A stretch of 64,000 nucleotides of DNA from the IMG/VR virus record IMGVR_UViG_3300021475_000005; one strand, written 5' to 3'. The notes under the pieces are model-generated. The model saw only the letters and a list, made by a program, of their open reading frames with translations, was not told where the DNA came from and searched no databases. This DNA is from a virus (taxonomy: Duplodnaviria; Heunggongvirae; Uroviricota; Caudoviricetes). Shown piece after piece: positions 20,253 to 49,290 of this stretch (positions are counted from its first letter, which is position 1; every line of letters starts with the position of its first letter). The translations under genes were made by a program, and so were the position numbers.

Positions 20253-20345
20253 ATATTCGTTACTTCTCATCTCCATAATTCGCCGTTTCTGGCGAGTTAA
20301 CGTCTGTTTCGTTTGTAACTCGTCGTCTTTGACGAGTTCTGCTTT

Positions 20346-20431
20346 TGGTGGGAGTGGAAGGAATTGCACCTACTCACCCGTGGGGACTGATTTTACAGAC
20401 CAGCGCCGCTCTCTAACTCGACCGCACTCCC
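20346..20431 (-). tRNA. tRNA-Tyr(GUA)
   Basis: Loop CUGUAAA, long V-arm, CCA. Confidence 0.88.
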
Positions 20432-20444
20432 ATGGTCCAAATGC

Positions 20445-20483
20445 AAAAAGGCCCGCTCGGTGTTTACCGGGCGGGCCTTTCGG
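20445..20483 (-). terminator. Attenuator terminator ahead of the Tyr-to-Arg tRNA operon
   Basis: AAAGGCCCGCCCGGU-AAAC-ACCGAGCGGGCC-UUUUU; its 5' arm is also complementary to leader-ORF nt 20542-20527. Confidence 0.85.
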
Positions 20484-20503
20484 AACCTTGAGAGCGACTG
20501 GGT

Positions 20504-20593
20504 TTACCAGATATCCTGCTCACGCGCCGAAGACCCGCCCGGAATATACCGGACGAAGTTGACTTGCTGCACGCGGTTGAATCTCTTGCTCAT
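20504..20593 (-). CDS. Leader peptide A (MSKRFNRVQQVNFVRYIPGGSSAREQDIW), putative tRNA-operon attenuator
   Basis: ATG is 6 nt after the -10 box (leaderless-type); codons 4-17 match the downstream tRNA set. Confidence 0.8.
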   Translation of the reverse strand: MSKRFNRVQQVNFVRYIPGGSSAREQDIW

Positions 20594-20599
20594 GATGTT

Positions 20600-20628
20600 T
20601 GTGTACCTGATTCGATTTTGAATGTCAA
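20600..20628 (-). promoter_or_regulatory. Sigma70-type promoter of leader A / tRNA operon
   Basis: TTGACA-17 nt-TACACA. Confidence 0.8.
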
Positions 20629-20684
20629 GGATACCCAATATGGGGTGGTGAGTCAGTTTGACTGACTTGACATTCCCAAAACTT

Positions 20685-20890
20685 GTCGGGAGGGCTAGGA
20701 AAGGCCAGAGGCTTTTCATCTGGGCTGTAGCAATCCCAGAACAGCGCTACTCCTGCGCTCCGGCCTATCATAGCCCTCCCGACCTCGGCTTGCGCCGGAC
20801 GCGGATGCCACGCGATCTGGGGAGGCTAGGGGATTCGACAGGTGCGGTCAAGGATCGCGACTTTCGCGTATCTCAGGTACGGGAAAGTCG
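20685..20890 (-). ncRNA. Unidentified structured RNA at the 3' end of the Pro-to-Ser tRNA operon (strand inferred)
   Basis: 13-bp stem 20685-20697/20771-20783 enclosing a multibranch; further hairpins at 20811-20859 and 20858-20890. Confidence 0.5.
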
Positions 20891-20894
20891 TAAA

Positions 20895-20984
20895 TGGCGG
20901 AGAGTTGGCGAACCCGAGTCCCATACCCGTAAAGGTACACAAGGTTTAGCAAACCTGTCCCATCACCTGATGAGTTAACTCTCC
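20895..20984 (-). tRNA. tRNA-Ser(GCU), degenerate T-arm
   Basis: Loop UUGCUAA, long V-arm, CCA. Confidence 0.8.
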
Positions 20985-20989
20985 TAATC

Positions 20990-21079
20990 TGGCGGAGCGC
21001 ACTGAAGTTGCGTCAGAGGCCTTTGCAGGCTCGCGATGCTTTCCAAGCAGGCCGGGCGCGCTCGTCCCGTTTACGCTCC
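20990..21079 (-). tRNA. tRNA-Ser(GGA), degenerate T-loop
   Basis: Loop UUGGAAA, long V-arm, CCA. Confidence 0.8.
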
Positions 21080-21149
21080 AATTTTGCGCGAGATGCCACG
21101 ACGCATCCCTTTCAACCATTCCGGCACGTTGGCCTGCGCTGGTCTTGAC

Positions 21150-21239
21150 TGGAGGAAGGCGGGTGCTGCTGCCGCCCAAGCCGGTTAGGGCTCCATCCGT
21201 TTTCAAAACGGAGTCTAACACTGGTTAGATTCACCTTCC
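21150..21239 (-). tRNA. tRNA-Ser(UGA), degenerate T-loop
   Basis: Loop UUUGAAA, long V-arm, CCA. Confidence 0.8.
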
Positions 21240-21244
21240 GTAAT

Positions 21245-21335
21245 TGGCAGAGAGCGACGGGGATGCTCCGCAAACTTCTCTCGAAGTTCGATCCGCTTTC
21301 GAAACGGTCGCCGTACCTCGACGGCTTCACTCTCT
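21245..21335 (-). tRNA. tRNA-Ser(CGA), degenerate T-loop
   Basis: Loop UUCGAAA, long V-arm, CCA. Confidence 0.8.
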
Positions 21336-21342
21336 GTAAAAA

Positions 21343-21418
21343 TGGTGGACCTTGCCGGACTTGAACCGACCACCCGCTGCTTGCAAAGCAGCCGCTCTCC
21401 CAGATGAGCTAAAGGCCC
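21343..21418 (-). tRNA. tRNA-Ala(UGC)
   Basis: Loop UUUGCAA, G3:U70, CCA. Confidence 0.92.
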
Positions 21419-21424
21419 GTAGCT

Positions 21425-21496
21425 TGGTGGAGTAAATGGGAGTCGCGCCCATCGCAATCGGTTTGCAAGACCAATCTCCGCCCTCGCGGTTACCCC
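21425..21496 (-). tRNA. tRNA-Ala(UGC), second divergent copy
   Basis: Loop CUUGCAA, G3:U70, CCA. Confidence 0.8.
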
Positions 21497-21500
21497 GAAC

Positions 21501-21576
21501 TGGAACTGCGTGTCCGATTTGCACGGACCTCCTCCGCCTTCACAGGGCGGCGACTCGCTTGCTAGTCCTACGCAGC
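21501..21576 (-). tRNA. tRNA-His(GUG)
   Basis: Loop CUGUGAA; G1:U72; no encoded G-1. Confidence 0.85.
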
Positions 21577-21584
21577 ATTTAATT

Positions 21585-21668
21585 TGGTCGCTCTACCAGA
21601 ACTTGCATCTGGAATCCCGAAGGACAACGTTCTCAACGTTGCGCGTCTACTAGTTTCGCCATAGAGCG
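21585..21668 (-). tRNA. tRNA-Leu(GAG)
   Basis: Loop UUGAGAA, V-arm, CCA. Confidence 0.87.
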
Positions 21669-21677
21669 TTATTTTAG

Positions 21678-21760
21678 TGGTGCCTCAACCCAGACTCGAA
21701 CTGGGACGCTTTCGCACTGGGATTTGAAGCCAGCGTGTCTACCATTTCCACCATGGAGGC
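21678..21760 (-). tRNA. tRNA-Leu(CAA)
   Basis: Loop UUCAAAU, V-arm, CCA. Confidence 0.88.
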
Positions 21761-21772
21761 ATATTCGTTATT

Positions 21773-21855
21773 TGGTGCCCAACGTCGGGGTCGAACCGAC
21801 ACCTCAATGAGAACGGGATTTAAAGCCGTCGCGTCTGCCATTCCGCCAGATGGGC
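21773..21855 (-). tRNA. tRNA-Leu(UAA)
   Basis: Loop UUUAAAU, V-arm, CCA. Confidence 0.88.
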
Positions 21856-21896
21856 ATTATAAACTTGTGATCGAGTAGTACGATTCACTTGTAAGT

Positions 21897-21980
21897 TGGT
21901 AGCCCTAGAGGGACTTGCACCCCCACGTCTTTCGACATTGGTTCCTAAGACCAACGCGGCTTCTATTACGCCATAGGGCC
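21897..21980 (-). tRNA. tRNA-Leu(UAG)
   Basis: Loop CUUAGGA, V-arm, CCA. Confidence 0.88.
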
Positions 21981-21985
21981 AAACT

Positions 21986-22073
21986 TGGAGGACTCGGAGA
22001 GAATTGCACTCTCGGTGGCAGTTACGCTAGTGGATTAAGAATCCACGCCCATCGCTTCTCGGGTCACGAGTCC
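21986..22073 (-). tRNA. tRNA-Lys(CUU) with long variable arm
   Basis: Loop UUCUUAA, ~16-nt variable region, CCA. Confidence 0.83.
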
Positions 22074-22091
22074 AAATTATTCAGTATACTG

Positions 22092-22176
22092 AGGATCGGG
22101 TGAGATTTGCACTCACGATGGCATTTCTGCGTGGGTTTAAAAGACCCGTGACTTCGACTACTCTGTCCACCGATCC
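22092..22176 (-). tRNA. tRNA-Lys(UUU) with long variable arm; CCA not fully encoded
   Basis: Loop CUUUUAA; acceptor GGAUCGG/CCGAUCC. Confidence 0.82.
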
Positions 22177-22191
22177 ATCTCAGTATAAAAT

Positions 22192-22267
22192 TGGTTCCGC
22201 TTATCTGACTTGCACAGATCATCTCTCGTTTACGAGACGAGCGCATCGCTACCAATGCTTAAGCGGA
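22192..22267 (-). tRNA. tRNA-Thr(CGU)
   Basis: Loop CUCGUAA, CCA. Confidence 0.87.
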
Positions 22268-22272
22268 TCAAC

Positions 22273-22347
22273 TGGTGCCTCTTGAACGACCTGCCCGTTC
22301 CTCTCACCCCTACCAAAGGTGCTCATCGCTTTCTATGATTAAAAGGC
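22273..22347 (-). tRNA. tRNA-Thr(GGU), degenerate T-loop
   Basis: Loop UUGGUAG, CCA. Confidence 0.78.
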
Positions 22348-22348
22348 G

Positions 22349-22424
22349 TGGTGCCGATAGACAGGATCGAACTGCCTCCCTGACTGATTACAAAACAGTT
22401 GCGCTCCACTAGCGCCATATCGGC
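22349..22424 (-). tRNA. tRNA-Thr(UGU)
   Basis: Loop UUUGUAA, CCA. Confidence 0.88.
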
Positions 22425-22513
22425 AAAAAACAATTGCATGATTCGGGTAGTCTCGCCTTCTTCGCGTCCCGATAGTTTCAGCCATCACCGGCTTACGGAG
22501 ATCATGCACAAAA

Positions 22514-22601
22514 TGGTCAGAGTGGTGTGATTCGAACACACGATGCCTTTCGGCTCCTGCTCCCAAAGCAGGCGGAATGAGCCAGCCTATCCGACACTCT
22601 G
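22514..22601 (-). tRNA. tRNA-Pro(UGG) with long variable arm
   Basis: Loop UUUGGGA; V-arm GCC-GAAA-GGC; C1:G72, A73. Confidence 0.87.
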
Positions 22602-22648
22602 ATAATTCTAATATCATCATAGCGAATCTCCGCTTACGATGATTGAAT

Positions 22649-22724
22649 TGGTCTGCCTATCAGGATTTGAACCTGAATCACCAGCTTCCGAGGCCGGGGC
22701 TCTACCAAGTTAAGCTATAGACAG
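22649..22724 (-). tRNA. tRNA-Pro(CGG)
   Basis: Loop CUCGGAA, CCA. Confidence 0.87.
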
Positions 22725-22813
22725 TCGTTCTTCGTCTCCTGTTGGAGCCGGACCTGTTTCTGGAGCGGGGATCAGAAGGTTTGGTCGCGACTCGTGTTAG
22801 CCGCGAGAGGGAC

Positions 22814-22927
22814 TTAGTCCCGTAAGCGGCTTGAGAGTGGTGCGGTCGCTGGCGTTGTCAGCACGAGCGAATGCAAACTGGCGGAGGCCAGTTTGGGGCT
22901 CGACTTGAGTGACAACGTTGCGAACAT
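22814..22927 (-). CDS. Leader peptide C (MFATLSLKSSPKLASASLHSLVLTTPATAPLSSRLRD), putative tRNA-operon attenuator
   Basis: Lies between a promoter and the first tRNA; 30 of residues 3-33 are A/T/L/S/K/P/H, the isotypes of the downstream operon. Confidence 0.8.
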   Translation of the reverse strand: MFATLSLKSSPKLASASLHSLVLTTPATAPLSSRLRD

Positions 22928-22967
22928 TTTCAAACCTTTAAGTGGCGCGAGTCGCGCCGGAAGTCTT

Positions 22968-22996
22968 TGTGTCTCATATCCAGACTCGTATGTCAA
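22968..22996 (-). promoter_or_regulatory. Promoter of leader C / tRNA operon
   Basis: TTGACA-17 nt-GACACA, with GAGTC in the spacer. Confidence 0.7.
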
Positions 22997-23145
22997 CAAA
23001 GAAATTTCAAAATCCACTTTCCGGTTTCGCCGGGTTGCCGCGATTAACAAAAGGACGCCCGCTTTTGCAGGCGTCGTGTCGCTTTCTTTATGGCAATGCA
23101 TCCGAATTCCCGGATGAGCGGCTCATATGAGTAAAGGAGATCAAA

Positions 23146-23442
23146 ATGGACGATGATTGGGACAATGAAGAATGGGAACGCTGGATCGCGCTCACCGATG
23201 CGGAACAGGAGCAGGAACTCCGCGTGGCTGAGGCGGAATATATGGAATGGTATAGATCGTTGACGCCAAAGCAGCGCTACCATTATGAAGTCCGAGGACT
23301 TCTTCGACTCATCGTCAAGGAACGAAAAGGCTTAAAGCTCTTTCCCGAAATGCGAGATTTGATGGTTCGAAGAGCCCAGAAATTACTTTGGGCGCATCGG
23401 CATCATCGTCAAACCGGCATCTATCCTTCGTTCGACGACTAG
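23146..23442 (+). CDS. Hypothetical protein
   Basis: AAGGAGA RBS; 98 aa. Confidence 0.7.
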   Translation: MDDDWDNEEWERWIALTDAEQEQELRVAEAEYMEWYRSLTPKQRYHYEVRGLLRLIVKERKGLKLFPEMRDLMVRRAQKLLWAHRHHRQTGIYPSFDD

Positions 23443-24091: not shown

Positions 24092-24214
24092 TTATTTGCC
24101 CTTCTTCTTGGGCATCGGCATTGCCTTCTTTCCGCCAGCCGGTTTCTTGCCTGCACCTTTCTTCTTACCAAAGGGAGGTGCTGCACCGGGGAATGCAGGT
24201 TTCTTCGAGGCCAT
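24092..24214 (-). CDS. Small Lys/Pro/Gly-rich basic protein (40 aa)
   Basis: Below the track cutoff; MASKKPAFPGAAPPFGKKKGAGKKPAGGKKAMPMPKKKGK, with AAGGA RBS. Confidence 0.7.
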   Translation of the reverse strand: MASKKPAFPGAAPPFGKKKGAGKKPAGGKKAMPMPKKKGK

Positions 24215-24466: not shown

Positions 24467-24679
24467 TTATTTTGGAGCCTTTCCATCGCGCTTCTTGTGG
24501 AAGCCTTCCAGAGTTTCGGCGAGACGCGCTTCTTTGCCGATCTTACCCGGTTCCGCAGCCGCCTTTTTGAGTTCGTCCTGCGGAATTTTCTGGCCTTGTG
24601 GAATTCCCAATGCACGATGCAGCGCGCCTTTGTCGCCGCCAATCGCTTTCTGGATAAAATGTTTTGCTTTCTTTGCCAT
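24467..24679 (-). CDS. Small basic phage protein
   Basis: MAKKAKHFIQKAIGGDKGALHRALGIPQGQKIP; GAGG RBS. Confidence 0.75.
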   Translation of the reverse strand: MAKKAKHFIQKAIGGDKGALHRALGIPQGQKIPQDELKKAAAEPGKIGKEARLAETLEGFHKKRDGKAPK

Positions 24680-24815: not shown

Positions 24816-24891
24816 TGGCGCACCTAACGAGATTCGAACTCGCAGCGACTTGATCGACAATCAAGCTTCATTCCCAGATGAACCTAGATGC
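24816..24891 (-). tRNA. tRNA-Asp(GUC)
   Basis: Loop UUGUCGA, CCA. Confidence 0.87.
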
Positions 24892-24912
24892 ATTATCTCA
24901 CATATAATAAAT

Positions 24913-24989
24913 TGGTCATGCCAACGAGATTCGAACTCGTGCCACAAGGATTGAAAGTCCCGTATCCTAGACCGCTAGACCATGGCATG
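24913..24989 (-). tRNA. tRNA-Glu(UUC)
   Basis: Loop CUUUCAA, CCA. Confidence 0.87.
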
Positions 24990-24991
24990 AT

Positions 24992-25071
24992 TGGTCGGGT
25001 CAACGGGGAACGATCCCGCATAGCAAGCTTGAGAGGCAAGCTGTCCTAGTCCTGATTTAGACGATGACCCG
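24992..25071 (-). tRNA. tRNA-Glu(CUC), weak anticodon stem
   Basis: Loop CUCUCAA, CCA. Confidence 0.75.
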
Positions 25072-25113
25072 TAGAGAGGAGTTTCGGACGGGTCGAAGAT
25101 TTACGTCGCGCGC

Positions 25114-25221
25114 TTAAGCGGCGACGCGCATATCTCGGCCCGTCGAACGTTCAAGTTCGCGGGCAACGGTGCCGGAGAGGCACACGTGCATGAGTGCGCG
25201 GATGTGATTCGAGATAACCAT
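25114..25221 (-). CDS. Leader peptide B (MVISNHIRALMHVCLSGTVARELERSTGRDMRVAA)
   Basis: Leaderless-type ATG after TTGACA(25255-25250)-17-GATGAA; precedes the Glu/Glu/Asp tRNAs; alternative RNA pairings present. Confidence 0.55.
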   Translation of the reverse strand: MVISNHIRALMHVCLSGTVARELERSTGRDMRVAA

Positions 25222-25337
25222 GCGCTTTCATCTCATTTTCAGACGGCCTTGTCAAGAATGCCTCGATAATATAGACGCCATATAGGAAAGCGGCTGAAAT
25301 CCGGCACTACCGGTCATAAAAAGCGACAGATGCCATA

Positions 25338-33818: not shown

Positions 33819-33894
33819 TGGTGCGGTGTGAGGATACTGATTCCCCGTCCTGCTGATTGGAAGTCAGCCGCTACCACCATTGAGCTAACACCGC
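33819..33894 (-). tRNA. tRNA-Gly(UCC), degenerate T-loop
   Basis: Loop CUUCCAA, CCA. Confidence 0.83.
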
Positions 33895-34127
33895 GAATTT
33901 CCGTGGTTGGCGATATCCTCACCTTTCCTGCTGCACCACAAACAGCGCTTCCTCATGCAGGTTACTCGACCATGTCTCCTTTAGGGCTTTAGACATGCAA
34001 TCGAAACCGAGAAACGTCAGAATATCATTCTATTTATTCCGGTCAGCCAAGGCCGTACTTATTTGAATGACAGAGCTAACGGCTATTACCAAAAGTCCTA
34101 CGCACCCGACATGGATGAATATCGAAT

Positions 34128-34200
34128 TGGCGCTAGGGGATGGGATTTCACCACCGATAGCAAATAAGCGCTTACATGCTATCTCTTACACGACCCAAGC
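34128..34200 (-). ncRNA. Anticodon-less tRNA-like RNA 1
   Basis: Acceptor GCUUGGG/CCCUAGC-G-CCA, T-arm GGUGG-UGAAAUC-CCAUC, no D-stem; a long helix replaces the anticodon arm. Confidence 0.65.
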
Positions 34201-34205
34201 AAACT

Positions 34206-34268
34206 TGGAGCCAAGGGCTGGAATTACACCAGCCGGGACTTGCCCCCGTCTTTATACAAGACCTCGGC
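34206..34268 (-). ncRNA. Mini tRNA-like RNA 2 (63 nt)
   Basis: Acceptor GCCGAGG/CCUUGGC-U-CCA, T-arm GCUGG-UGUAAUU-CCAGC, truncated anticodon hairpin. Confidence 0.65.
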
Positions 34269-34274
34269 ATAAAC

Positions 34275-34350
34275 TGGAGCGGGTAAGGAGCCCAGTGATC
34301 TCCTCTATCTACGTTGGCAACGTAGCGCCTCGCCTCTAGGCTTTACCCGC
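34275..34350 (-). tRNA. tRNA-Gly(GCC), degenerate T-loop
   Basis: Loop UUGCCAA, U73, CCA. Confidence 0.83.
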
Positions 34351-34434
34351 ATTTAATTCTAGTTTCGCAATACGGCGCTCACGACGATGAGCAAACCTGA
34401 TATCACGACTGTGTGCTTTCTTGCTGCGCCGATT

Positions 34435-34508
34435 TGGAAGAGTGTATGGGAGTCGAACCCATATCGCTTGTTTTGCAGACAAGAGCCTCACCGCCCGGCT
34501 CACACCCT
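34435..34508 (-). tRNA. tRNA-Cys(GCA)
   Basis: Loop CUGCAAA, U73, CCA. Confidence 0.9.
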
Positions 34509-34516
34509 AAAAATCG

Positions 34517-34591
34517 TGGCACCAGTTGAGCGATTCGAACGCCCGACACGCGGTTTTGGAGGCCGCTGTTCTACCCCTGAACTAAACTGGT
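34517..34591 (-). tRNA. tRNA-Trp(CCA)
   Basis: Loop CUCCAAA, G73, CCA. Confidence 0.92.
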
Positions 34592-47888: not shown

Positions 47889-49214
47889 TTACTCGTTGCC
47901 AGCCTTCTCGACCTCGGCGATCCAGCGGAGAACGTTTTCCGAAAAACCGTCGATATGGTTCCAGCGACCGTAGCCCACGCCATTCTTGTTCGAGGCCACG
48001 TTGATCAAATAGGCATGCTTTGTATCCGGAGCCACTGTCTTGTCATGGGACTGCTCGTCCGTGATGACGATCAAACGGTCATGTTTGATCTTATAGACAG
48101 TCCGAAGAGCTTCGCCGAGATAGGTGCCACCATGCATCTGACTCTTCGAGATCGCCTCGATCCCAGCCATTCCAAGGCGGCGCGGGACTTCAACCACCTC
48201 GTGAGAAAATGTGAAAACTCTCACATCCTCTCCGGGGAAGATAGCGGCAAGCGTCGCCGCTGCGTCCAGCCGGGTAAGGTCCGACTTCTCGGACAACTTG
48301 ACATCCATCGAGCCTGAGACATCGACAAGAAGGATCGTCTTGCCCGGAAGCTTCTCCATTTCCTTCAAGGAGGCGATGAGAGCTTCGTCGATTGCCGGTT
48401 CGAAGGACTTGGCATGCCGGGCAGCCGCCGTGAAGCGGAAGGGAAGAACCTTTTCAGCACCTTTGCGTGCCTTCAAGGCTGCAAGGACGAGATCGCGGTC
48501 AACATTCGCCTCAACCATGTTGCGGAGATTGCGCAACAAAGCGAGATAGCCGAGTTTCCCGGTCGAGAGAAGCCGCTCAAAAGTTTCCTTCTTGCCTTCG
48601 CCTGCACTCAACGCCACTTCCCATGTATCGGGGGCATTGAGCGTGTTGTTGACGAGGCTATCCCACAAAGCCTGCTGCTCCGCATCCTTCGGTTTCGGAT
48701 GCGTCAAGAATAGAACATCCCGAAGACGGATTTCATTCTTTCGGTCGTACTTACCAAGTTGGTAGGCATCGAACTTCGTAAAAGCCATCGCGAGGCCGCG
48801 CTTAAGTTGCGCGGACAGCGGCGCATCTTTGCCGTTGAGCTTCCAATAGAGCGCCAACAGTTCAGAGAGTTCGTCGGCACGCTGAATGACACGTGCGATT
48901 GTCATACTCGTGAGATTATTGCCAGCGCCGGTCTTGCAGAGGGCGACGAGGAGCAGGAGGCTGACATGACGAAGCTTCATATCCTCGCGAGCTTCGATGG
49001 CGATCAAGCCAAGTGTGCCGGGGCTGACCTTCTGGGCAAGATCGTAGATGCGCTTGCTGATCTCGACGCCGTCCTCATAAAATTCATTCTCAAACAGCAT
49101 GCACGACATCACCGAACGGCGAAGCTGTTGCTCCACGGTCGTGCGCGCAGCCGGTGCGCCTTCATGCGTCGTTTCGGTGAAGGAATTCTTGGTCTTGATG
49201 TTTGTACGGGCCAT
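47889..49214 (-). CDS. rsr: Ro60/Rsr orthologue (TROVE + vWA RNA-binding protein)
   Basis: ENEFYEDG, QRADEL, FDAYQLGKY, TWEVALS, ALLRNLRN, LPFRF, vWA DVSGSM, GGT, ITDEQ. Confidence 0.93.
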   Translation of the reverse strand: MARTNIKTKNSFTETTHEGAPAARTTVEQQLRRSVMSCMLFENEFYEDGVEISKRIYDLAQKVSPGTLGLIAIEAREDMKLRHVSLLLLVALCKTGAGNNLTSMTIARVIQRADELSELLALYWKLNGKDAPLSAQLKRGLAMAFTKFDAYQLGKYDRKNEIRLRDVLFLTHPKPKDAEQQALWDSLVNNTLNAPDTWEVALSAGEGKKETFERLLSTGKLGYLALLRNLRNMVEANVDRDLVLAALKARKGAEKVLPFRFTAAARHAKSFEPAIDEALIASLKEMEKLPGKTILLVDVSGSMDVKLSEKSDLTRLDAAATLAAIFPGEDVRVFTFSHEVVEVPRRLGMAGIEAISKSQMHGGTYLGEALRTVYKIKHDRLIVITDEQSHDKTVAPDTKHAYLINVASNKNGVGYGRWNHIDGFSENVLRWIAEVEKAGNE

Positions 49215-49248
49215 GTTTCTCTCGGGTTGGAATACCAAACGCGATGTC

Positions 49249-49290
49249 GCGAATCCTGACATGTGTAGACAGGATTCGCAGGAGTGTCAA
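49249..49290 (-). promoter_or_regulatory. Ro60 promoter with a palindrome over the -10 box
   Basis: TTGACA-17-TACACA; GCGAATCCTG (49249-58) / CAGGATTCGC (49270-79). Confidence 0.75.

What the first reader, a model, noticed from the sequence alone, without database searches (positions are those of the whole stretch)
22725..22996. Leader C is built from the seven amino acids of the 18-tRNA Pro-to-Ser operon
Seen: 30 of residues 3-33 are A/T/L/S/K/P/H (rough uniform estimate about 1e-9, uncorrected). The ORF includes codons for Ser GCU/GGA/UGA/CGA, Leu GAG/CAA/UAG/UAA, Lys CUU/UUU, Thr CGU/GGU/UGU, Ala, His and Pro UGG; only CCG is missing. The single exception, Val22, lies in CUCGUG, which is complementary to CACGAG downstream of the stop. 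The same downstream region is also complementary to the 5'UTR elements CGCGACUCG and AAGGUUUG. No U-tract terminator is visible, so the output (Rho-dependent termination or processing) is inference.
Basis: partly seen in the sequence, partly recalled or inferred. Interest (0 to 1): 0.88.

Follow-up and report, generated by a model that had tools for sequence, protein, structure and literature searches.

The report
Leader peptide gating phage tRNA operon
A soil phage related to Caulobacter phage phiCbK puts a tiny gene, spelled almost only in the seven amino acids served by the 18 tRNA genes behind it, inside a switchable RNA leader, so it probably makes those tRNAs only when ribosomes read these codons slowly; I found no published case of this control for tRNA genes.

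Summary
Confirmed and extended. The 37-codon ORF (22927-22814) heads an 18-tRNA Pro/Thr/Lys/Leu/His/Ala/Ser operon of a 156-kb phiCbK-like phage. Its 30/31 stretch is the best in the genome; 0 of 50,000 shuffles match it. All 15 relatives with the region in hand (about 11 lineages, including phiCbK gp335) have an equivalent leader: 94% in-set codons, all seven amino acids, replacements staying in the set. The other large operon has its own matched leader. Finishing the ORF favours a final hairpin; a stall anywhere earlier favours an antiterminator, an OR gate over about 30 codons. That hairpin is an intrinsic terminator in 7 of 16 phages but has no U-tract here, so this copy's output (Rho most likely) stays inferred, and its modelled switch is weak. 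The Val22 pairing is not conserved; isoacceptor matching holds only for Lys. No experiment shows regulation. I found no publication; the scan has noted this design before on other DNA, including the phiCbK family. Verdict: new variant of leader-peptide attenuation.

The parts
22968..22996 (-). Sigma70-type promoter: -35 hexamer 22996-22991, -10 region about 22975-22968
   Evidence: Same motif pair upstream of all leaders in 15-19 phages; invariant in alignment A2; an RNA-library contig begins at 22948, none at 23018-23268 (weak hint). Not picked up by the strict consensus scan.
22944..22958 (-). 5' hairpin P0
   Evidence: 6 bp, two compensatory changes in L008
22931..22938 (-). Leader RBS; 5' strand of the long-range anti-RBS helix
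   Evidence: Pairs with 22783-22776 (-7.8 kcal/mol); equivalent helix with different letters in L001 and L008
22814..22927 (-). Leader ORF C, 37 codons; sensing zone codons 3-33
   Evidence: no Pfam family
22842..22926 (-). ORF-internal long hairpin pairing codons 2-7 with codons 22-29; forms only when untranslated
   Evidence: MFE and 3-sequence consensus fold; may explain nucleotide conservation at codons 25-29
22799..22831 (-). Hairpin G (segments 1:2), with the stop codon in its inner loop
   Evidence: -10.0 outer, -7.1 inner; pairs 100% in A2; equivalent stop-spanning hairpin in most homologues
22785..22806 (-). Hairpin H (segments 2:3), mutually exclusive with G and AT
   Evidence: -11.6; 100% paired in A2; first post-stop stem in nearly all homologues
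22745..22793 (-). Antiterminator helix AT (22793-22783 with 22754-22745), enclosing a C-rich linker with a small hairpin (22777-22758)
   Evidence: -14.2; 100% paired in A2; dominant when the modelled ribosome is at codons 2-29
22776..22783 (-). Anti-RBS strand, seen in window, L001 and L008
22733..22750 (-). Terminator-like hairpin T (segments 4:5), weak (-5.6), no U-tract
   Evidence: Positional homologue of the annotated intrinsic terminator behind phiCbK gp335
20895..22724 (-). 18-tRNA operon: Pro x2, Thr x3, Lys x2, Leu x4, His, Ala x2, Ser x4; no internal -35 hexamer
   Evidence: one RNA-library contig spans 21758-22948, leader plus tRNAs
23054..23075 (-). Intrinsic terminator upstream of the promoter, insulating the unit
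20440..20628 (-). Sister unit: promoter, leaderless ORF A (20593-20504), classical antiterminator/terminator before the Tyr/Phe/Val/Ile/Gln/Asn/Arg operon
   Evidence: Codons 4-17 in set: 14/14 here, 252/266 in 19 phages; P(terminator) about 0 with the ribosome at codons 10-14, 0.82 from codon 15
25072..25255 (-). Sister unit: promoter, leaderless ORF B (25221-25114) before Glu/Glu/Asp tRNAs
   Evidence: Positionally conserved Glu and Asp codons 5-13 codons before the stop in 15 phages, but no compositional enrichment (12% vs 11.5% background)

Best explanation
Leader C is a ribosome-read sensor that gates transcription into the 18-tRNA operon. SHOWN in sequence: promoter, RBS, conserved ORF with operon-matched composition, and four overlapping helices. 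MODELLED: if the first ribosome reaches the last 8 or so codons, it melts G; H forms; the antiterminator strand is taken up; T forms and the C-rich linker is exposed (OFF). If it is delayed at any of about 30 Pro/Thr/Lys/Leu/His/Ala/Ser codons, G persists, AT forms, and polymerase reads on (ON). Because OFF needs completion rather than a stall at one position, a long seven-amino-acid OR gate is possible. INFERRED: OFF is intrinsic termination in phiCbK-like relatives. In this U-less copy it is most likely Rho-dependent termination, helped by the anti-RBS helix that blocks re-loading and leaves the C-rich leader bare (as in mgtL/corL). My split for this copy, given a sensor: Rho about 0.5, factor-assisted weak intrinsic about 0.2, processing or decay about 0.3. 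INFERRED: the physiological signal is shortage of usable tRNA, and the phage tRNAs close a negative feedback loop.
For: Composition far beyond chance. Out-of-sample: 438/467 in 14 other leaders with the same zone rule, plus 26/29 in L473; all seven amino acids in each of the 15 leaders. In five disjoint pairs, 40 of 47 replacements stay in the set against 48% expected from single-base neighbours (p about 2e-7); lengths vary from 31 to 45 codons with the frame kept. Reciprocal specificity: C leaders have 6% set-A residues (background 33.5%), A leaders' zone is 95% set A. BL9/SC moved tRNA-Trp into this operon and carry the only mid-zone Trp codon. An AAA codon is present in 10/10 leaders whose operon has Lys-UUU and in 1/6 without, though AAA is 0-11% of Lys codons in the GC-rich relatives. 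P(T) rises when the ribosome is at the stop in 10 of 11 lineages (sign p 0.006; combined shuffle p about 5e-5). In the window the modelled switch point is codon 29/30, close to the end of the biased zone. phiCbK has an annotated terminator at T. RNA contig links leader and tRNAs.
Against: No experiment. In the window the switch is weak: P(T) 0.09 to 0.26 (27% of shuffles as large) or to 0.4-0.5; T is only -5.6 kcal/mol with zero U. T lacks a good U-tract in 9 of 16 phages. Bajun goes the wrong way, L251 and BL57 barely switch. G and AT pairs are invariant in A2, so they give no covariation proof; three sequences give weak covariation for the rest. Isoacceptor matching fails for Ser-UGA and Leu-UAA. 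Trp codons occur near the end of the L251 and Bambus leaders without a Trp tRNA. No Rho site can be proven from sequence. The folds are equilibrium models, T arms were chosen by eye, and lineages are related.
Confidence: 0.7

Rival explanations
1. The ORF is a tRNA-supply sensor, but in this U-less lineage the switch acts after transcription: H/T versus AT sets how the precursor's 5' end is processed or degraded.
For: No U-tract here or in about half of the homologues; in L007 segment 4 pairs with the tRNA-Pro 5' strand itself; an RBS-like purine run is hidden in T and freed in AT without a conserved start codon behind it; the anti-RBS helix can form only after the whole leader is made.
Against: The homologous hairpin is a plain intrinsic terminator in 7 phages; tRNA-Pro keeps at least 8 unpaired 5' nt in both states here, enough for RNase P by established knowledge; one 5' switch would have to govern 17 downstream tRNAs.
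Confidence: 0.16
2. Vestigial: the attenuator works in phiCbK-type phages but lost its U-tract in this lineage and the operon is constitutive.
For: Weak T, zero U, weak modelled switch; read-through RNA seen.
Against: Window, L001 and L008 are far apart (PhoH 68% and 53% identical) yet keep the ORF, the bias (29/30, 31/31, 22/24), invariant G/H/AT/T cores, and share a covarying anti-RBS helix.
Confidence: 0.06
3. The composition is a by-product of a C-rich, structured RNA (a rut site or hairpins), not of selection on codons.
For: ORF body is 38% C; many in-set codons have C in the middle; restricted-alphabet small ORFs do occur (1 of 414 reaches 31/31 for some seven residues).
Against: Shuffles that keep dinucleotides never reach 30 and the other two frames are unbiased; Lys and His, which are not middle-C codons, occur in every leader; leader A shows the opposite set; Trp and Lys-AAA follow operon content.
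Confidence: 0.03
4. The peptide is the product (a small protein or arrest peptide), or it is the tail of the 95-codon frame open from 23101.
For: Annotated as a hypothetical CDS in phiCbK, BL9, Bajun, Rogue; the frame is open 65 codons upstream in the window.
Against: Sequence identity 50-75% between lineages with no invariant motif while composition is kept; the long frame crosses a terminator and the promoter and is closed after 14-18 codons in L001 and L008; no Pfam match.
Confidence: 0.05

Closest known systems
Multivalent leader-peptide attenuators of enterobacterial amino-acid operons (ilvGMEDA: Ile/Val/Leu; thr: Thr/Ile; also trp, his, pheA, leu) and the pheST attenuator
   Same: Short ORF rich in control codons, mutually exclusive antiterminator and terminator, read-out by ribosome speed (trp logic described in PMC8346122; ilv, thr and pheST from my own knowledge).
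   Different: Controls tRNA genes, in a phage; seven amino acids rather than one to three; five segments, with OFF requiring completion of the ORF rather than ON requiring a stall at a set position; no U-tract in this copy.
uORF-controlled Rho-dependent attenuators mgtL/mgtA and corL/corA of Salmonella
   Same: Efficient uORF translation restructures the leader towards termination; stalling gives read-through; no intrinsic terminator needed (PMC12360218).
   Different: Signal there is Mg2+ through Pro codons and targets are transporters; a Rho site is not shown here.
T-box riboswitches
   Same: Sense tRNA status and switch terminator against antiterminator (PMC8346122).
   Different: Bind one tRNA directly through a specifier loop, no ORF; no Rfam T-box match here.
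Anabaena PCC 7120 trn L-array
   Same: A long tRNA operon induced when translation is impaired (PMC8421152).
   Different: The paper has no mention of attenuation or a leader; tRNAs are not sorted behind matched ORFs as far as I read.
phiCbK gp335 and equivalents (BAJUN_02440, BL9 gp552, Rogue gp349)
   Same: Positional and compositional orthologues of this ORF.
   Different: Annotated only as hypothetical proteins; the phiCbK genome paper reports no RNA elements besides tRNAs and explains the tRNAs by codon usage (PMC3556154). phiCbK, Rogue and Bajun have a U-tract.

Membership tests
Classical leader-peptide transcription attenuator | Short ORF with start signals between promoter and regulated genes | tested here: met
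   Promoter, RBS, ORF; conserved in 16 phages
Classical leader-peptide transcription attenuator | Control codons matching the function of the regulated genes | tested here: met
Classical leader-peptide transcription attenuator | Mutually exclusive antiterminator and terminator-type helices set by ribosome position | tested here: inconclusive
   Helices present and conserved; modelled switch in 10 of 11 lineages, but weak in the window itself
Classical leader-peptide transcription attenuator | Intrinsic terminator (GC hairpin plus U-tract) | tested here: not met
   Zero U after T in the window; met in 7 of 16 homologues including phiCbK
Classical leader-peptide transcription attenuator | Translation of the ORF and stall-dependent read-through in vivo | not testable with these tools
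   Only assembled RNA contigs were available
uORF-controlled Rho-dependent attenuator (mgtL/corL type) | C-rich, conditionally unstructured rut region freed by completed translation | tested here: inconclusive
   C/G 1.64 in the ORF and 1.52 after the stop; 1.2-1.6 in L001 and L008; linker is only about 30 nt and partly paired
uORF-controlled Rho-dependent attenuator (mgtL/corL type) | Termination sensitive to bicyclomycin or rho mutation | not testable with these tools
   Needs experiment
T-box riboswitch | Stem I with specifier loop and T-box antiterminator bulge | tested here: not met
   No Rfam match at gathering or E<=5

The most novel reading that the evidence does not exclude
The leader is a phage-built monitor of the host's usable tRNA pool. 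It detects loss of tRNA (cleavage by defence nucleases or decay during infection) rather than amino-acid starvation, partly at isoacceptor level, integrates seven amino acids through a completion-sensing five-segment switch, and in about half of the family works without an intrinsic terminator; with the sister leaders it forms a modular tRNA homeostat.
Probability: 0.35. Interest if true: 0.9.

Novelty: new variant of a known kind. Interest (0 to 1): 0.8.

Why it matters
Why phages carry large tRNA sets is an open question: codon-usage supplement, replacement of degraded host tRNAs, or counter-defence. A leader that reads the codons of its own tRNA block implies supply on demand and names the signal the phage watches. 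Extra tRNA does not cure amino-acid starvation, so tRNA loss is the likelier trigger (inference). It also explains why these phages sort tRNA genes into blocks with non-overlapping amino acids. The same element is gp335 of phiCbK, a long-used laboratory phage with a tractable host, so the question is directly testable. A seven-input attenuator would also widen what leader peptides are known to do.

Tried and rejected
Val22 pairing: not conserved. Full isoacceptor sampling as a rule: Lys-UUU p 0.002 and Thr-UGU p 0.03 uncorrected for kinship, Ser-UGA p 1, Leu-UAA p 0.2; 14 of 17 exact cognates in the window is only modestly above what 31 in-set codons give. 95-codon upstream frame: rejected. 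Translation from the RBS-like run inside T: no conserved start codon. Rfam: only tRNAs. Pfam on the peptide: nothing. Distant Cbk-like phages with interleaved tRNA arrays (RcXuper, DSS3P8, Cp1R7A-A1, L009, L010, L025) showed no clearly matched ORF in a crude test. Run X1 may be the source of this DNA and X3 holds a small share; neither is used as support. Uncovered stretches in X2 are a weak hint only. Ten paper searches found no tRNA-operon attenuator; most subscription journals are not searched, and the Turnbough 2019 review was not held.

Full report
Setting. The window is part of a 156,272-bp contig. Its tail tube protein is 55% identical to that of Caulobacter phage phiCbK, and its PhoH groups with phiCbK-like phages and soil assemblies; the runs that hold it are soil metagenomes. 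The host is probably an alphaproteobacterium (inference). The minus strand carries four tRNA blocks with non-overlapping amino acids: Trp/Cys/Gly, Glu/Asp, Pro/Thr/Lys/Leu/His/Ala/Ser (18 genes, 22724-20895) and Tyr/Phe/Val/Ile/Gln/Asn/Arg.

Observation. The ORF runs 22927-22814, 69 nt after a -35 hexamer and 89 nt before tRNA-Pro. 30 of codons 3-33 are in the operon's set. The probability is 1.2e-9 on uniform codons and 1.3e-10 on the phage's background of 42.5%; counting the whole ORF without choosing a window, 31/36 gives 8e-8. It is the best 31-codon window in six frames of the genome (next 26), no dinucleotide shuffle in 50,000 reaches 30, and the other two frames are unbiased. A restricted alphabet alone is not proof, since 1 of 414 small ORFs uses only seven residues over 31 codons; the match to the operon is what counts.

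Homologues. Through PhoH I fetched the tRNA region of related phages. All 15 that include the start of the Pro-to-Ser block have a 31-45-codon ORF in the same place, among them phiCbK gp335. They fall into about 11 lineages on a PhoH tree whose deep forks are unresolved. With the zone rule fixed (codon 3 to five before the end), 467/497 codons in 15 leaders are in the set, 438/467 without the window, and each leader has all seven amino acids; L473 adds 26/29. Between lineages only 50-75% of residues are identical, but 40 of 47 replacements in five disjoint pairs stay in the set, against 48% expected from single-base neighbours. The leader of the Tyr-to-Arg block shows the mirror pattern, 252/266 in its own set over codons 4-17 in 19 phages, while C leaders contain 6% of those residues. 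Selection is therefore on which amino acids are encoded, not on a peptide sequence.

Natural experiments. CcrBL9 and CcrSC have tRNA-Trp at the end of this operon and the only mid-zone Trp codon (codon 24); this is one event, and two other leaders have a Trp codon near the stop without that tRNA. L007 has tRNA-Cys in the Glu/Asp block and three Cys codons in that leader, though two other B leaders have one Cys. An AAA codon is in 10/10 leaders whose operon has Lys-UUU and 1/6 without; kinship inflates this, and phages without that tRNA also avoid AAA genome-wide. Ser-UGA and Leu-UAA show no such match.

RNA anatomy. The region folds far better than shuffles (z -5.2). Four overlapping helices follow the sensing zone: G (22831-22799, around the stop codon), H (22806-22785), AT (22793-22783 with 22754-22745) and T (22750-22733). 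G excludes H, H excludes AT, AT excludes T. Their cores are invariant or fully paired in window, L001 and L008, and equivalent helices with different letters appear in the other lineages. Folding with a ribosome footprint gives P(T) of 0-0.2 at A-site codons 2-29 and 0.4-0.5 from codon 30 in the window. A stricter comparison gives 0.09 against 0.26, which 27% of shuffles match, because a ribosome on the stop still covers part of H. Across lineages P(T) is higher at the stop in 10 of 11 (sign p 0.006; combined shuffle p about 5e-5). These are equilibrium models with T arms picked by eye.

The missing U-tract. In phiCbK, Rogue, BL57, Bajun, Kikimora, Bambus and L251, T is followed by 5-7 U in 8 nt and is annotated as a terminator in phiCbK. 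In the window it is followed by none, and in L001, L008, L473, L007, Colossus, PW, BL9 and SC by 2-4. The U-less state is thus shared and kept, not a defect of this genome. Window, L001 and L008 also share a helix between the leader's RBS and 22783-22776 with changed letters on both sides and a hairpin that buries the first codons. Both would stop further ribosomes from loading once the leader is complete, leaving C-rich RNA (C/G about 1.5-1.6) bare. That fits Rho-dependent termination of the mgtL/corL type (PMC12360218) but does not prove it.

Expression. In soil metatranscriptome X2 one contig spans 21758-22948, leader plus tRNAs; others span 24826-25200 and 20265-20563, each starting 14-30 nt inside a predicted start, and 23018-23268 is uncovered. 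Contigs cannot show starts, strand or levels, DNA may be present, and it is one study; this is a weak hint that the promoters are used and read-through occurs. No -35 hexamer lies inside the operon.

Mechanism. Most likely the first ribosome races the polymerase. Completion melts G and commits the RNA to H plus T (OFF); delay at any in-set codon leaves G plus AT (ON). Unlike the trp attenuator, the stall need not be at a fixed place, which is what lets one ORF sample seven amino acids. Sister leader A is a classical four-segment attenuator with a true terminator (P(T) about 0 at codons 10-14, 0.82 otherwise), and leader B appears to rely on two or three positioned Glu/Asp codons. I put a ribosome-read sensor that controls this operon at about 0.86, and control by premature termination at 0.70. 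That the signal is tRNA loss rather than starvation is inference.

Comparison and novelty. It works like the multivalent ilv and thr attenuators and, in logic, like mgtL. This copy fails the intrinsic-terminator test, so I do not file it as a classical member. It is not a T-box. The phiCbK genome paper describes no such element (PMC3556154), the Anabaena inducible tRNA operon paper mentions no attenuation (PMC8421152), and ten searches found no tRNA-operon attenuator; closed journals were not searched. The scan's own notes report the same design on other DNA (601 notes in at least 262 genomes hold the search words), including the phiCbK family. I saw them after reaching my reading and count them as repetition, not evidence. 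What I add for this copy is the five-segment logic, the spread of the U-less state and the anti-RBS helix. Verdict: new variant of a known kind, interest 0.8.

Noticed in passing
window 20665-20790 (-): Strongly folding non-tRNA RNA (z -5.1) between the last Ser tRNA and promoter A; no Rfam match; a similar-looking motif follows Ser-GCU in phiCbK (L257 about 15150) and Bajun (L258 about 8300).
   Followed up: partly
L259 about 12490, L261 about 12410, L265 about 11415, L264 about 5830, L007 about 8212, L267 about 7340: An RBS plus a 4-5-codon mini-ORF containing two Gly codons lies between the operon-A terminator and tRNA-Tyr in six phages; others keep the RBS-like run without a start codon.
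   Followed up: no
window 22733-22740 and homologues: The 3' arm of T carries an RBS-like purine run followed by a short conserved tail in most U-less leaders; it is hidden in T and exposed in AT, with no conserved start codon. Unexplained.
   Followed up: partly
L007:2620-2660: Segment 4 of the leader pairs with the 5' acceptor strand of tRNA-Pro, so the OFF state would misfold the first tRNA.
   Followed up: partly
window 22430-22510 (-) and 34128-34268 (-): tRNA-like spacers with a closing stem but no usable anticodon arm; similar end-paired spacers sit between tRNAs in L008, L251, L258, L260.
   Followed up: no
window 33822-34591 (-): The Trp/Cys/Gly block has a promoter directly upstream (34661) and no matched leader; no tRNA-Met was detected in the genome at relaxed threshold, though L001, L005 and L008 have one.
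   Followed up: partly
window 24092-24214 and 24467-24679 (-): Two small Lys-rich ORFs between operons B and C, both with counterparts in L001 (1094-1294 and about 1393-1502); the 40-codon one uses only seven residue types over 31 codons.
   Followed up: no
window 47889-49262 (-): TROVE/Ro60-like RNA-binding protein; scan notes mention Y-RNA-like repeats upstream, not checked.
   Followed up: no
window 23146-23442 (+): 98-aa ORF divergent from leader C, with a similar gene in the same place in L001 (1669-1977); no database relative found.
   Followed up: partly
L257, L264, L266 (phiCbK, Rogue, BL57): Several tRNAs missing from the public annotation (Thr, His, Ala, Tyr, Ser-GCU) are present or visible by relaxed search, so the published statement that these phages lack Thr and Tyr tRNAs looks wrong.
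   Followed up: partly
L260:4438, L262:4259: A possible Pro-GGG tRNA follows Glu/Asp in BL9 and SC (relaxed ARAGORN only); their B leader has no Pro codon.
   Followed up: no
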